64,000 bases of DNA from the human T2T-CHM13v2.0 reference genome, Homo sapiens. How positions within the stretch are numbered: position 1 is the stretch's first letter; every line of letters starts with the position of its first letter. Position numbers and translations under genes: made by a program. The notes below the pieces were generated by a model that ran no database searches, had not been told where the DNA came from, and worked only from the letters and a program-made list of their open reading frames with translations. This document shows positions 11,772 to 19,660 of this stretch, piece after piece. Where the stretch lies: the NCBI RefSeq assembly GCF_009914755.1, contig NC_060927.1; one strand, written 5' to 3'.

Positions 11772-11987
11772 TCAAAAGGGTTTGCCCTGAGACTCCGAGA
11801 AGAAGCTGCGGGAAGGACAGCAGGGGTCCCGGGGTTTTAGCCTCTGGCCCAGGAGTTGTATGTCCATAACCAAAGGGAGCACAGTCTGCACCCAGCTCTC
11901 ATCCCATCGGAGCTGCTGCGACTCCCGCAGGTCCTTCCAAAACTGGTTTAGCTTGCCTGCAGGATCAGGAAAGTTTGAGAAAAGCAT
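11772..11987 (-). CDS. ALG1L: ALG1-derived last exon, coding part with 28-aa read-through tail
   Basis: ORF 11772..11993: [42 protein letters not shown] followed by IQLLGQ...GKPF*. Confidence 0.8.
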
Positions 11988-12352
11988 CTGCAAAAAAATA
12001 AAGAGCAGAGCTTACCTCATTGCCTGTCCCCACCCCATCCCAGGTCACCACCTGGCTGACCCCAGGTCCCCGACCCAACAACAACCCCTCCCAAGTTCCT
12101 AACTCCCTCACTTGGACTCGAGACTCTTCACGCCCCAGCAGCGCTCCGCCTCCAACTTGACATCATGCTTTCTGGAAACTTCCCCGTATGTCCCACTTTC
12201 CCACACTTGGTGCCCTGGAGCACCTCCCGGCCTCTAACGTGCTGTATGTTCCCCTGCGAGCACCCTCCTCTTGGCCTCTGGCCAAGTCCCACCCATCTGT
12301 GGGTAACAAGGGGGTGTCGGTGTTCTTTTCAGCCTTGCTAAACTCTCTGAAT

Positions 12353-12565
12353 CAAGGATCACAAACTACAGCCTGCAGGCCAAATCCAGCCCACAGCCTG
12401 TGTTTGTAAATAAAGTTTTATTGGAACAAAGCCACACCCCTTAATCTACAGATGATCTGTGGCTACTTTCACACCACAACAGAGTACCATGGTTCTGACA
12501 GAGACTGGGGGACCCAGTCTAAATGACTTCTGACCTGGACCTTTACTGAAAATCCTGCCAATCAT
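12353..12565. mobile_element. MER58A-like hAT DNA element
   Basis: caaactacagcctgcaggccaaatccagccc...gtaaataaagttttattggaaca consensus. Confidence 0.75.
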
Positions 12566-12976
12566 TCTGTTGGCAAGAATGATGTATTACTTTTAGCAAT
12601 AAGAAACAAGTAACCTTTGCAGAATTCCACCCATCTTTCAAGGCTGGTCCCAGAAGCTCCCTTTGCCCGCCCACCTACCTGATCCTGATCACTTCCTAAA
12701 CTGCAGCCCGGCCCACCTGGCTCCAGCATCATTTGTGGAGTCTCAGCTCCATAAATCCAGAGGGCAGGTGAGGGTGTGTCCTAACTTTCCCGAGCCTACT
12801 GTACCGAAACGGGACAGCAGAGTGGGCCGGCCTCTGTGACCTCTGCTCCCTCCCTAGCTTTTCCGCCAGACCCCACATGGTCCCACCCTGGCTGTGGGAA
12901 GCAGGGATCAGGGAGTGTGGCTCAGTGCCAGTCTCCAGAACCCTCCCCACCCTGGCGTGGTGGCAGATGTGGCTAC

Positions 12977-13049
12977 CTGCAGAGCTGCCAGTTCCTCTGA
13001 GTCCTCAAAGACCAGGCCATTTTCTTCATGTTTCACCAGCTCATGTAAA
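12977..13049 (-). CDS. ALG1L: ALG1-derived exon 12 (73 nt, [24 protein letters not shown])
   Basis: ORF 12908..13144; tgcag| and |gtagcc; one codon shorter than recalled ALG1 (ELAAQLQ). Confidence 0.8.
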
Positions 13050-13782
13050 CTGCAGAGAGAACCAAGGGAGCCTGAGAGCTGCCTGGAGAAGACACCAGAC
13101 CCCTGGGGTGCCCACCTGGGCTCCCCCCACCACCGCATGCTCAAGCCAGTCTGGGGGTTGGAACAGGGGGTGTGGTTTCCAGGAGCTGGTTCTTAGATTT
13201 GGCATCTGAAGGGTATAAAGGCCTGGGGGGGTGCACATCAAAATGGACAAACTGATTTGAGGAGGGAGCCTTAAGGAGGGTTTGTACCTTCTGTGCTGGA
13301 TGCTCTTCAAGGACTGAAGAATTATTTTTGCATGTTTTTCTTAATTCCATGGCCATGGAACAAGTAAAGACAACACCCTGGGGACTGGCTCAGCACATAA
13401 AAGATGACTTTTCTAGGGCACCAGGTTTGATCCCGACATTTCCTGAGCTCAGCTCACATGAGGGGCTCACATCCCTGAATCCCATCCAGGAGCCAGCTCC
13501 TGAGCAGGGGCCAAGGGCTCAGCTTGTGCTGGGGCTACTGCTTCTAGAATCTCCTCTAACGCCGCCCTTCCAAACAGCCATCTATGCTGGGTGGAGTGAG
13601 GCCACAGCATGACAATCGTTTAACTGATTCAAACCCACCAGGTGAGCTTGGCCAAAAGGGACATGGTGGGAGAGAAAGAAACAAAGAAAACCATGTAAGC
13701 CTGCAGGCAATTCCCGCCAATTCTACTCTAGGAGCAAAAGCCCCGAGTGGAGTTCTAGTATTTGGGATGCTTTTCTTTCATA

Positions 13783-16559: not shown

Positions 16560-16768
16560 AGGGGTCCACAAACATTTCTTAAAGGGCCAGAGAGTAAATA
16601 CTTCAGGCTTTGCAGGCCACAGGTTCTCTGTTGCAAAACGTGATTCTGCTATTGTAGCTCAAAGGCGGCTGTAGACAACTCAGAAGGCAATGAGTGTGTT
16701 GTGTCCCAGTGAAACTTGATTTACAAAAGCAGGAGACTGGCCTGTAGCCTTAGTTTGCCAACCCCTGG
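16560..16768. mobile_element. MER58-like DNA element
   Basis: aggggtccacaaac...aaagggccagagagtaaata...gtttgccaacccctg. Confidence 0.7.
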
Positions 16769-16857
16769 ATGAGTGGGTTCCCAGGTCTGCAGTGAGAAGG
16801 GGAGAGGCCAGGGCAGTGGCGAGCAGGAGAGAAGGCAGCTGAGGAGGGGAGGCCTAC

Positions 16858-16968
16858 CAGGCCCTGAACGGAGAGTGAGTGCCACCCAGCTTCATGAAGA
16901 GCCGGTGCAGCAGGTCCAGAGGTGTCTCTTTAAAGAAAGATGCCGGCTTGTCATAGATGGTCACAGCC
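16858..16968 (-). pseudogene. ALG1L: ALG1-derived exon 6 (111 nt, [36 protein letters not shown])
   Basis: tgcag| acceptor, |gtaggc donor; in-frame ATG at 16895 adds 20 aa (207-aa form). Confidence 0.88.
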
Positions 16969-19299
16969 CTGCAATGAAATCATGGCAGGGCTATTGGGAG
17001 GGCTGAAGAAAGGCCTCAGGAATAGAGGACTCAGAGGCTCCAGGAAAAGAAGGACGCTTGGGGAATCCAAGTCTCAGACGATGACAAGAAGAAGCCTTGC
17101 AATCACTTGGGAATGCACAGGGAGACGTCCTAGGACCAAAACTGCCTGGACCCCCTGGCTGGTTGGGAAAGAAACTCTGCCCCCTCCTCTCCCGGCTTCC
17201 CCAAATTTTCCCATTATGTTGCCAAGCATTAGTCCAGCGTGGAGGCTACTTTCTGCTCAAACCACTCATTTGGGTCCCGCGCCCAACGTCACCCATCCTC
17301 AGTAAAACAACCTTTATTTCCTTCTTCCTGGTTTCCAGAAAGTTCCCCTAAAGCCCTGAGGAATCACCGAATGAAAGGGGCTTTTTACAAACAGGAAACT
17401 TAAGTGGAGTGCCAATACACAACATGGATTGCACCAGGCTAGGTCTAAGATAAAACCAGACTGTGGACAACAGGACAGATAAGACACACATGGCTCTGCA
17501 CTGCCTGGGTCTGTTATTGTGTGGAGGAATGTCTTAGTCTGTTGCTCCTGTGGATGTGGCGAAAGCACGAACCAGGAGTTTTCATCCTTCATTTCATTTT
17601 CTTAATCTAGTTGTATCATCCTCTGGGTGAGCCTAGCCCACTTTAAAATGGATATTCAGATGTCAGAATGAATAGAGCAGTGTGCCTGACTTAAGTAATA
17701 TCAAAATTTTAGACATGTGGAAAAGACGGAGTTGATGAAGCTACTGTTATCCAGAGACCATGACCATTCCGGGTGGTTGGTTTCGTTTCTAATGCACATC
17801 TGCTCCACCCCACCAATTGCTTTGCGCAATGTGCGGTTCTCATTACAAAGTCAACAATTCTTTATCATCTGCGTGGTCAGTCACCCTTTTGTTGTCCCTC
17901 CCTTGTAATTGTTTAATCTGGCCTCCCCTGCCACATTTCTTGGCTGCCTACTCTCCCCGCTCCTGTCAGTCAGGTTGTACTCAGGGAATGTAAATGCACA
18001 GAAAAAGTCCAGAGTCAATTAGAACTAATTAGGTGTTTTATCTGCTGCTTTGGATTATCCGTGCCCTCTATGGATACACGGCATAGGCTGGTTGAACAAC
18101 CATCCCTGGATTGGGGAGCATTCTAAGACTCACACACAGCTTCCTATTGTCTGTGCTAACGGAGGTAAAGGCTGGTGTGAATGTACAACAGAGACATTTA
18201 AAAACCAAGGCATAGTTTATGCCCATTTTCATTGTACATTTTAGTGAGTGTTTACAGCTTTATATAACTGTCTGACCATCACCACAATCAAGGCATAGCA
18301 TACTTTCAACATCACAAAAAGTTTTCTTGTGCCATCTCAGCCAATCTGGCCCTACCTTGGCCCCAAGCAACCACCAGTCTGCTTTCTGTCACTATAGATT
18401 AGATTTGTCTTTTCTAGGGTTTTAGTTTCTCCAATCTCCTTCCCAGTGATGTCTGGTTTAGGCTGATATTAAAATGTGTTCATGTTCCCTACATCCACAC
18501 TGATTTAACACGGTGGGCAGAGCTGGGACATGGAAGAAACGTGAGAGGCAAGACGTGGAGGCTGATGAGCATAATTATTGGCAATGAGAAGAATGTTGGC
18601 TCTCCCCAGTATTTGTAGAATATGACAAAGCGGTGTGCCCATGTTGTGCCCTGAACCTATTTTCAAGGTCATTCAATACAGAGTCTCCTAAATTTAACTA
18701 CCTAGGAATTGTGTTTTGCCTTGAATGGACATTTGGAAACTCCAGACTCTAGCCAGCCCCTCTCAGCCACGGAGTCATTGCTCCCCCTGGTGTAAACACA
18801 GAGACTAGTCACCCTGTGTCAGGCATTCCCACCCACTGCAGCCCTCCTTGGACCACAAGGAGCCAAGGGCAGGCAAGAAAGCTTCAGGCTCCCTCTGGCT
18901 GTTAGGTTCCTAGGTCAAAGGCTGAGTTTGTGAACACAGAGAAACACTAAGAGATCAACCGCTCAGGAACAGAGAGAAGGAAAACCGCAGAAACAGAACT
19001 AGCTAGACATGCAAGACAGAGAGGTGAGGGGGCACAGGCACAGCCCAAAAAACAAAGCAAGGAGAGGAGCCAAGATGGCCGAATAGGAACAGCTCCGGTC
19101 TACAGCTCCCAGCGTGAGCGACGCAGAAGATGGGTGATTTCTGCATTTCCATCTGAGGTACCGGGTTCATCTCACTAGGGAGTGCCAGACAGTGGGCGCA
19201 GGTCAGTGGGTGCGTGCACTGTGCGCAACCCGAAGCAGGGAGAGGCATTGCCTCACTTGGGAAGCGCAAGGGGTCAGGGAGTTCCCTTTCCGAGTCAAA

Positions 19300-19660
19300 G
19301 AAAGGGGTGACGGACTCACCTGGGAAATCGGGTCACTCCCACCCGAATATTGCGCTTTTCGGACCGGCTTAAAAAACGGCGCACCACAAGATTATATCCC
19401 GCACCTGGCTCGGAGGGTCCTACGCCCACGGAGTCTCACTGATTGCTAGCACAGCAGTCTGAGATCAAACTGCAAGGCGGCAGTGAGGCTGGGGGAGGGG
19501 CACCCGACATTGCCCAGGCTTGCTTAGGTAAACAAAGCAGCTGGGAAGCTCAAACTGGGTGGAGCCCACCACAGCTCAAGGAGGCCTGCCTGCCTCTGTA
19601 GGCTCCACCTCTGGGGGCAGGGCACAGACAAACAAAAAGACAGCAGTAACCTCTGCAGAC
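19300..19660 (-). promoter_or_regulatory. L1 antisense promoter region with minus-strand splice donors (CCAG|GTGCGG at 19405/19404; CCAG|GTGAGT at 19320/19319)
   Basis: Established position of the antisense promoter and ORF0 donors in the young primate L1 5'UTR; donor sequences seen directly; activity here is inferred. Confidence 0.65.

What the first reader, a model, noticed from the sequence alone, without database searches (positions are those of the whole stretch)
11772..19660. Possible gene birth: L1PA2 antisense promoter positioned to drive a promoterless ALG1 fragment
Seen: the ALG1 duplicate lacks exons 1-5 and therefore its promoter. About 2.1 kb upstream of its first exon lies the 5'UTR of a full-length L1 in the opposite orientation. 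It offers minus-strand donors CCAG|GTGCGG (19405) and a perfect-consensus CCAG|GTGAGT (19320), facing intact acceptors at 16968 and 16118. Established: young L1 5'UTRs carry an antisense promoter that yields chimeric transcripts (e.g. L1-MET) when hypomethylated in germ line, placenta and tumours. Inference: ALG1L expression is supplied by this L1 and tracks its methylation.
Basis: partly seen in the sequence, partly recalled or inferred. Interest (0 to 1): 0.85.

Follow-up and report, generated by a model that had tools for sequence, protein, structure and literature searches.

The report
L1 antisense promoter drives ALG1L1P
A dead L1 retrotransposon that landed next to a promoterless copy of the ALG1 gene supplies one of that pseudogene's two transcription starts; this is real, but it is already annotated and catalogued.

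Summary
A full-length but ORF-dead L1 lies on the + strand at 19062-25102, flanked by a 15-bp target-site duplication. It sits 2.1 kb upstream of a 3' ALG1 fragment on the minus strand (ALG1 aa ~207-464; parent exons 1-5 absent).

RefSeq NR_171194.1 starts inside the L1 5'UTR at 19601 (L1 nt ~540) and splices 19320->16968. Criscione et al. 2016 Table S1 already lists L1PA2->ALG1L with 12 rows for ALG1L (11 read), manually validated and detected in H1-ESC PacBio data. The central idea is therefore right but already known.

New here:
- The L1 is specific to this copy: two paralogous loci keep exact empty sites.
- The ALG1 duplicon breaks in intron 5 at 17205.
- L1 ORF0 is in phase with the ALG1 frame through the 19320 donor, but a TGA stops it at codon 25.
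- A second, non-L1 CpG-island promoter lies about 53 kb upstream, beyond the window. A published allele-specific-methylation eQTL for ALG1L appears to map there.

[quoted passage not shown] is thus only partly supported. "Gene birth" overstates a transcribed pseudogene under relaxed constraint.

The parts
19047..19061 (.). 5' target-site duplication AAAAAACAAAGCAAG of the L1 insertion
   Evidence: The same 15-mer occurs once at the empty sites of paralogs L009 and L010.
19062..25102 (+). Full-length L1 (labelled L1PA2 in published tables): 5'UTR 19062-19965, broken ORF1 and ORF2, 3'UTR and A-rich tail
   Evidence: L1PA2 label: Criscione Table S1 and Pinson Table S1. 29 CpGs in the 5'UTR, observed/expected 0.41.
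25103..25117 (.). 3' target-site duplication
19320..19601 (-). Exon 1 of ALG1L1P transcript NR_171194.1, lying wholly in the antisense L1 5'UTR (L1 nt ~259-540); its 5' end is a start site, not an acceptor
   Evidence: Hub annotation. The two bases ahead of 19601 on the minus strand are 'gc', not 'ag'. EST 5' ends fall at L1 nt ~354-489, computed from the hg19 coordinates.
19314..19322 (-). L1 antisense splice donor CAG|GTGAGT, used by RefSeq (19320->16968)
   Evidence: Among 29 related L1 copies: GTGAGT in 7, GTGCGT in 18, other in 4.
19399..19407 (-). Second L1 antisense splice donor CAG|GTGCGG; not used by the RefSeq model given
   Evidence: GT kept in 29 of 29 copies. Pinson 2022 states that the antisense L1 5'UTR holds two donor sites.
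19436..19510 (-). Remnant of L1 ORF0: ATG at 19510-19508, stopped by TGA at 19438-19436 after 24 aa. The frame beyond the stop is in phase with the ALG1 frame through the 19320 donor.
   Evidence: This codon is CGA in 21 and TGA in 8 of 29 related copies.
17600..19046 (.). Non-ALG1 flank between the duplicon junction and the L1, belonging to a chr3 duplicon shared with chr3:126.74 Mb and chr3:75.33 Mb
17203..17589 (.). 387-bp patch 95% identical to chr21:30797972-30798358, carried at the end of the ALG1/FAM86 duplicon in all five other copies fetched
14516..17205 (-). Stretch collinear with the chr16 ALG1 parent (93.9% identity); homology ends at 17205, inside parent intron 5
16858..16968 (-). 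Exon 2 of the transcript = ALG1 exon 6 (aa ~210-246); holds the ATG (16895) of the 207-aa ORF
15997..16118 (-). Exon 3 = ALG1 exon 7 (aa 248-287); 9 of 40 residues differ from the parent
15774..15812 (-). ALG1 exon 8 homologue (aa 288-300, EDEDFSILLAALE), present but not used in NR_171194.1
15072..15131 (-). Exon 4 = ALG1 exon 9 (aa 301-321)
14058..14172 (-). Exon 5 = ALG1 exon 11 (aa 356-395). Parent exon 10 (aa 322-355) has no counterpart between 14172 and 15072.
12977..13049 (-). Exon 6 = ALG1 exon 12 (aa 397-418)
11692..11987 (-). Exon 7 = ALG1 exon 13 (aa 420-463) plus about 30 extra codons read past the parental end; stop codon ends at 11772. Overlaps the 3' end of FAM86JP on the other strand.
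   Evidence: hub annotation

Best explanation
ALG1L1P is a 3' fragment of ALG1 (parent exons 6-9 and 11-13). It was carried with FAM86 in a segmental duplication that broke in ALG1 intron 5, so it arrived without a promoter. After that duplicon was joined to a chr3 (ROPN1B-side) duplicon, a full-length L1PA2 inserted 1.46 kb beyond the junction. It lies head-to-head with the fragment. The antisense promoter in the L1 5'UTR starts minus-strand transcripts at about L1 nt 350-540. The inherited L1 antisense donor at 19320 splices them to the native acceptor of ALG1 exon 6 at 16968. The product is the chimeric transcript NR_171194.1.

This is one of two promoters. A conventional CpG island about 53 kb upstream starts the longer isoforms. 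The L1 start site probably works inside that already open, transcribed locus.

Shown: the anatomy, the copy-specific insertion, and the existence of L1-initiated spliced transcripts (annotation and published ESTs). Inferred: the order of events, the relative weight of the two promoters, and any dependence on L1 methylation.
For: - Anatomy.
- Exon 1 (19320-19601) has no acceptor ahead of it.
- Criscione 2016 Table S1 has 12 'ALG1L' hits. The 11 rows I read are all 'L1PA2 +', EST strand '-', single alignment, manual validation 'yes', PacBio 'yes'. The PacBio data are from H1-ESC.
- EST 5' ends (hg19 125655835-125655970) against the L1 start (125655481) give L1 nt 354-489. That is within the first 600 nt, where the paper places antisense starts.
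- Both donors are conserved L1 features: GT kept in 27 of 29 and 29 of 29 related copies.
- Paralogs at chr3:126.74 Mb and chr3:75.33 Mb keep exact empty sites.
- In 5 of 5 other ALG1L-type copies homology ends at 17589-17603, with no L1 5'UTR in the 1.5 kb beyond.
- Only ALG1 aa 207-463 are present, and the breakpoint is in parent intron 5.
- A RefSeq 'enhancer' feature at 18923-19423 overlaps the L1 5' end (hub annotation).
Against: - The gene model reaches window position 72896. A GC-rich CpG island lies at about 72400-73300 (GC up to 0.68, CpG observed/expected 0.7-1.0) and has no L1 similarity. The L1 is therefore not the only promoter.
- The published genotype-methylation-expression link for ALG1L is at rs12636296 (hg38 chr3:125990207). 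By my coordinate arithmetic this falls near window position 72627, in that island and not in the L1. The arithmetic uses a recalled hg19-to-hg38 shift.
- I saw no cap-selected (CAGE) data. Isoform proportions are unknown.
- In Pinson's table the L1 at ALG1L appears as a short chimera around the L1 5' end, with counts in few samples (column headers not read).
Confidence: 0.88

Rival explanations
1. The CpG-island promoter about 53 kb upstream (window ~72400-73300, outside the window) is the main determinant of ALG1L1P expression in normal tissues. The L1 antisense start is a minor, secondary site whose activity follows transcription of the host locus, not its own methylation.
For: - The hub annotation gives the gene span to 72896 and four transcripts.
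- A CpG island lies there and has no L1 similarity.
- PMC13254082 (passages only): the G allele of rs12636296 is almost ubiquitously unmethylated and highly expressed, and the T allele is methylated and lower, in brain, blood and heart; coordinates are hg38.
- Pinson 2022 (passages only): L1 chimeric transcript expression follows the host locus, with no inverse correlation with L1 methylation at six loci tested.
- CRISPRi of a distal promoter lowers ALG1L1P by 24% in ESCs, which shows locus-level control.
Against: - All 11 EST rows read start in the L1. The hg19-era gene model (125648117-125655887) also started there.
- H1-ESC long reads support the L1 start.
- The mapping of the SNP onto the island rests on a recalled hg19-to-hg38 shift and on assumed collinearity. 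CHM13 has T, not G, at the computed base, so the position may be off by some bases.
- The island could instead act as an enhancer of the L1 start.
Confidence: 0.45
2. The L1 segment is an exonised internal exon of transcripts that start elsewhere. Antisense L1 sequence would then supply splice sites only, not a promoter.
For: - Antisense L1 5'UTRs carry splice sites, and ESTs are often 5'-incomplete. Criscione et al. name this as a confounder.
- An upstream promoter exists.
Against: - There is no AG ahead of 19601.
- EST 5' ends are ragged within L1 nt ~354-489 instead of piling up at one acceptor.
- Criscione et al. removed cases where an independent EST supported exonisation, and marked ALG1L as manually validated.
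- The hub table lists no other-transcript exon in the L1.
Confidence: 0.05
3. Mapping artefact: the ESTs come from other L1 copies or other ALG1L paralogs and were wrongly placed here.
For: The L1 5'UTR segment is 96-97% identical to at least 29 other copies. ALG1L-type copies are 94-96% identical to each other.
Against: - All rows are flagged 'single alignment'.
- 0 of 5 other ALG1L-type copies fetched has an L1 5'UTR within the 1.5 kb beyond the breakpoint, so an L1-to-ALG1-exon-6 junction has no other evident source.
- RefSeq curates the model at this locus.
Confidence: 0.03

Closest known systems
L1 antisense-promoter chimeric transcripts (LCTs), e.g. L1-MET; catalogued genome-wide by Criscione et al. 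2016 (PMC4908685) and Pinson et al. 2022 (PMC9396940)
   Same: [quoted passage not shown] One of the two L1 antisense donors is used to splice into a sense-oriented neighbouring exon. This very locus is listed in both papers' supplementary tables.
   Different: In most catalogued cases the L1 lies in an intron and gives an alternative start downstream of the gene's own TSS. Here the target is a truncated duplicate that lost its own promoter, and the L1 lies in unrelated flanking duplicon sequence.
L1 ORF0 fusion proteins (Denli et al. 2015; known to me only through Criscione's text, and recall)
   Same: The ORF0 ATG is present. The ORF0 frame runs through the 19320 donor in phase with the downstream gene's reading frame.
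   Different: ORF0 is stopped by TGA at codon 25 in this copy, so no fusion is encoded in this genome. Criscione's table marks ALG1L as not previously identified, in a comparison that included the ORF0 fusions.
Promoter capture by truncated segmental-duplication genes (general phenomenon; recalled, no paper read for it)
   Same: A 5'-truncated duplicate becomes transcribed from promoters found at its new site. Here those are a duplicated CpG island and a later L1 insertion.
   Different: There is no evidence of a functional product. RefSeq classes the locus as a transcribed pseudogene, and constraint looks relaxed (dN/dS 0.62).

Membership tests
L1 antisense-promoter chimeric transcript (LCT) | Transcript 5' end lies in the antisense strand of the first ~600 nt of a young (L1PA1-8) L1 5'UTR | tested here: met
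   RefSeq exon 1 starts at 19601, which is L1 nt ~540 (hub annotation; L1 start). EST ends fall at L1 nt ~354-489. The 600-nt criterion is from Criscione's text.
L1 antisense-promoter chimeric transcript (LCT) | Spliced from an L1 antisense donor to an exon of a neighbouring gene in sense orientation | tested here: met
   CAG|GTGAGT at 19320 joins the acceptor at 16968. The donor is conserved in 27 of 29 related copies.
L1 antisense-promoter chimeric transcript (LCT) | Initiation rather than exonisation (no upstream exon joined to the L1 segment) | tested here: inconclusive
   No AG ahead of 19601. Criscione's filter and manual validation were passed. I saw no cap-selected data.
L1 antisense-promoter chimeric transcript (LCT) | Activity depends on the L1 sequence (lost on silencing or deletion); repressed by methylation of the L1 5'UTR | not testable with these tools
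   Only indirect evidence: tumour hypomethylation of the annotated ALG1L promoter, and 'methylation-driven gene' lists. Pinson found no such correlation at six other loci.
L1PA2 subfamily | Subfamily-diagnostic positions against reference consensus sequences | not tested
   The label comes from two published RepeatMasker-based tables. No consensus library was on hand. A ~904-nt 5'UTR and 96-97% identity to the nearest copies fit a young L1PA element.
Retrotransposition-competent L1 | Intact ORF1 and ORF2 | tested here: not met
   ORF1 is open for only 129 aa and ORF2 is split into several ORFs.
ALG1 beta-1,4-mannosyltransferase (GT-B fold glycosyltransferase) | Full two-domain enzyme of ~464 aa with N-terminal anchor and acceptor domain | tested here: not met
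   Only aa 207-463 are present, and aa 322-355 are missing from the genome. The spliced ORF is 207 aa. The matching database protein P0001 has no precomputed Pfam domain. Single exons give no Pfam match.
L1 ORF0 fusion gene | Open ORF0 from its ATG through a splice donor into downstream coding exons | tested here: not met
   The frame is in phase, but TGA at 19438-19436 stops it after 24 aa.

The most novel reading that the evidence does not exclude
When the L1PA2 inserted, ORF0 codon 25 was probably CGA, as it is in 21 of the 29 nearest copies. The L1-started transcript would then have encoded an in-frame ORF0::ALG1 C-terminal chimera of about 295 aa. That would be a primate-specific chimeric protein made from a retrotransposon ORF and a promoterless gene fragment. 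It would later have been lost through a CpG transition to TGA, and might still be open on some human haplotypes or in other apes.
Probability: 0.12. Interest if true: 0.5.

Novelty: already known. Interest (0 to 1): 0.22.

Why it matters
This is a clean textbook case of how a 5'-truncated segmental-duplication copy becomes transcribed. It uses two borrowed promoters: a duplicated CpG island and the antisense promoter of a later, copy-specific L1 insertion.

It matters practically because array and RNA-seq studies report 'ALG1L promoter' hypomethylation and 'methylation-driven' expression in tumours. In the passages I read, none notes that the annotated TSS lies inside an L1PA2 5'UTR. Such signals may simply reflect global L1 hypomethylation.

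It does not open a new question. The L1-ALG1L transcript is in RefSeq and in a 2016 catalogue.

Tried and rejected
- Pfam on single in-frame exon translations: 0 families for 5 of 5 pieces at E<=10. The pieces are too short to be informative. One search failed on a frame error and was corrected.
- PDB sequence search with the last exon's translation: 0 hits at E<=1.
- Main-text literature searches: 'ALG1L' with 'antisense promoter' and 'LINE-1' gave 0 papers. 'ALG1L' with 'L1PA2' gave 0 papers. 'ALG1L' with 'transposable element' gave 7 papers, of which 5 were listed; none of those 5 titles or abstracts concerns an L1, and I read only the preprint, in passages. Searches were loosely framed and listed no paper containing ALG1L. 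The locus appears only in supplementary tables.
- The SeSAMe and polymorphic-pseudogene papers mention ALG1L2 only, so they are not relevant.
- ORF0-ALG1 fusion in this genome: rejected because of the TGA at codon 25.
- A copy-unique 'perfect' donor: rejected. GTGAGT is shared by 7 of 29 related L1 copies.
- An L1 inherited from the ALG1 parent or shared by paralogs: rejected.
- I did not identify what the upstream CpG island was before duplication. From recalled gene order, a CCDC14-side promoter next to ROPN1 is a lead, not tested.

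
Full report
**What is there.**
- The + strand from 19062 reads as an L1 5' end, with ORF1's ATG at 19966.
- The element ends in an A-rich tail. That tail is followed at 25103-25117 by AAAAAACAAAGCAAG, the same 15 bases that precede the element at 19047-19061.
- It is therefore a full-length (~6.04 kb) insertion with a target-site duplication.
- It is dead: ORF1 is open for only 129 aa and ORF2 is in pieces.
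- Two published hg19 tables label it L1PA2 (+ strand, chr3:125655481-125661512, 6032 bp). I did not classify it myself.

**The ALG1 fragment.**
- tblastn with a 464-aa gibbon ALG1 (P0023, obtained) finds only aa 207-463 in the window, all on the minus strand. Nothing matches aa 1-206 (best E 2.4, noise).
- Seven of the eight 3' coding exons of the parent are detectable.
- The exon for aa 322-355 is absent, although it is present on chr16 at 5110431-5110574.
- A 13-codon exon (aa 288-300) is present at 15774-15812 but is not used by NR_171194.1.
- On chr16, homology to the window ends at the equivalent of window position 17205. That point is 135 bp past ALG1 exon 5 and about 237 bp before exon 6.
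- The spliced RefSeq exons give a 207-aa ORF (16895 to the stop ending at 11772). It matches a database protein named 'ALG1 ... like [Homo sapiens]' (P0001: 99% identity over the last-exon query, no precomputed Pfam domain).
- Against the chr16 parent, the 196 comparable codons show 19.5 non-synonymous and 9.5 synonymous differences, so dN/dS is 0.62. This is a small sample and it mixes both lineages, but it fits relaxed constraint.

**The splice sites and the transcript.**
- The minus-strand donors are CAG|GTGAGT (exon end 19320) and CAG|GTGCGG (exon end 19405).
- The acceptors at 16968 and 16118 are canonical.
- These donors are inherited L1 features, not chance. Among the 29 best-matching L1 5'UTR copies in the same genome (96-97% identical), GT is kept in 27 of 29 at the first site: GTGAGT in 7, GTGCGT in 18, and GTGTGT and GTGCAGT in 1 each. 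It is kept in 29 of 29 at the second site.
- Pinson et al. state that the antisense L1 5'UTR holds two donor sites (passages).
- The hub's RefSeq table gives NR_171194.1 a first exon at 19320-19601. The two bases ahead of 19601 are not AG, so it is a transcript start, at L1 nt ~540.

**Already in print.**
- Criscione et al. 2016 (PMC4908685) Table S1 holds 12 hits for ALG1L. I read 11 rows.
- All 11 rows are 'L1PA2 +', EST strand '-', single alignment, manual validation yes, not previously identified, and detected in PacBio RNA-seq.
- EST sources: pancreatic adenocarcinoma 1, unnamed 1, astrocytoma cell line 3, Jurkat 1, normal nasopharynx 3, tongue tumour 2.
- The PacBio data are from H1 embryonic stem cells.
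- EST 5' ends (hg19 125655835-125655970) lie at L1 nt ~354-489. This is inside the first 600 nt, where the paper places antisense starts.
- Pinson et al. 2022 Table S1 also has a row for this L1 with ALG1L (column headers not read).
- No main text in the held library discusses the locus as an L1 chimera.

**History of the locus (new here).** The whole assembly could be searched. Window positions 16800-17590/17603 match many ALG1L-type copies, whereas 17578/17600-19061 match only chr3:75.33 Mb and chr3:126.74 Mb.
- Both of those paralogs continue directly into the sequence that follows the L1 in the window (25104 onward).
- Each carries the target 15-mer only once, as ...cccaaaaaacaaagcaag|aagcgatagaggg.... 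They are exact empty sites, so the L1 inserted into this copy alone, after the duplications.
- In 5 of 5 other ALG1L-type copies fetched, homology ends at 17589-17603, and no L1 5'UTR lies in the 1.5 kb beyond.
- Between the end of chr16 homology (17205) and the junction lies a 387-bp patch 95% identical to chr21:30797972-30798358.

**ORF0.**
- The antisense ORF0 ATG (19510-19508) is present in this copy and in 29 of 29 related copies.
- Codon 25 is TGA here. In the related copies it is CGA in 21 and TGA in 8 of 29.
- Beyond the stop, the ORF0 frame runs through the 19320 donor exactly in phase with the ALG1 frame.
- No fusion is encoded in this genome, but one could have been at insertion.

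**A second promoter.**
- The hub table lets ALG1L1P extend to window position 72896 and lists four transcripts.
- I fetched that stretch. At about 72400-73300 there is a CpG island (GC 0.5-0.68, CpG observed/expected 0.7-1.0) with no similarity to the L1.
- It has an 89%-identical paralog at chr3:126686625-126688116, so it came with the chr3 duplicon.
- PMC13254082 (passages; hg38) reports on rs12636296 at chr3:125990207. [quoted passage not shown] The T allele is methylated with lower expression in brain, blood and heart.
- I mapped this SNP using hg19 coordinates plus a recalled hg19-to-hg38 shift of 281,157. It falls near window position 72627, inside the island. This mapping is approximate; CHM13 has T at the computed base.
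- A 2025 preprint (passages) reports that CRISPRi of a promoter 177 kb away lowers ALG1L1P by 24% in ESCs.

**Methylation.**
A probe linked to ALG1L is less methylated in early-onset breast cancer. ALG1L appears among 'methylation-driven' genes in lung squamous cancer. I saw passages only and do not know which probes lie in the L1.
- Against it: Pinson et al. found no inverse correlation between L1 5'UTR methylation and chimeric-transcript level at six loci. They concluded that such transcripts follow host-locus activity. In addition, the strongest published methylation-expression link for ALG1L maps to the non-L1 island.

**Verdict.**
- The mechanism (L1 antisense promoter plus L1 donor feeding a promoterless ALG1 fragment) is well supported, but it is already annotated and catalogued.
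- The claims of sole supply, methylation tracking and gene birth are only partly supported.

Noticed in passing
L012:8400-9300 (window-equivalent ~72400-73300, outside the window): A non-L1 CpG island lies at the annotated upstream end of ALG1L1P. It has an 89%-identical paralog at chr3:126686625-126688116. A published allele-specific-methylation eQTL SNP for ALG1L appears to map here.
   Followed up: partly
window 17203-17589: A 387-bp patch is 95% identical to chr21:30797972-30798358. It sits between the end of chr16 ALG1 homology and the duplicon junction, and is shared by the other ALG1L-type copies fetched.
   Followed up: partly
window 14172-15072: The parent ALG1 exon for aa 322-355 is missing. 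The window has about 0.9 kb where chr16 has about 2.75 kb between the flanking exons.
   Followed up: partly
window 15774-15812 (-): An intact copy of the 13-codon ALG1 exon (EDEDFSILLAALE) is present but is skipped in NR_171194.1.
   Followed up: no
window 11772-11864 (-): The reading frame runs about 30 codons past the parental ALG1 C-terminus. Database proteins from bonobo, gorilla and Old World monkeys match this extension over 100% of the query at 85-89% identity. The read-through therefore seems old and shared by ALG1L copies.
   Followed up: no
window 11692-12444: The 3' ends of ALG1L1P (-) and FAM86JP (+) overlap convergently by about 750 bp. Criscione's table therefore lists the same L1-started ESTs a second time, as antisense to FAM86JP.
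   Followed up: no
window 18923-19423: A RefSeq 'enhancer' functional element spans the last 139 bp of flank and the first ~360 nt of the L1 5'UTR (hub annotation). I could not check its experimental basis.
   Followed up: no
window 25104-30912: The sequence downstream of the L1 is 93-95% identical to the chr3:126.74 Mb and chr3:75.33 Mb paralogs for at least 5.8 kb. The window from ~17600 onward therefore belongs to a large chr3 duplicon, probably the ROPN1/ROPN1B duplication (gene order recalled).
   Followed up: partly
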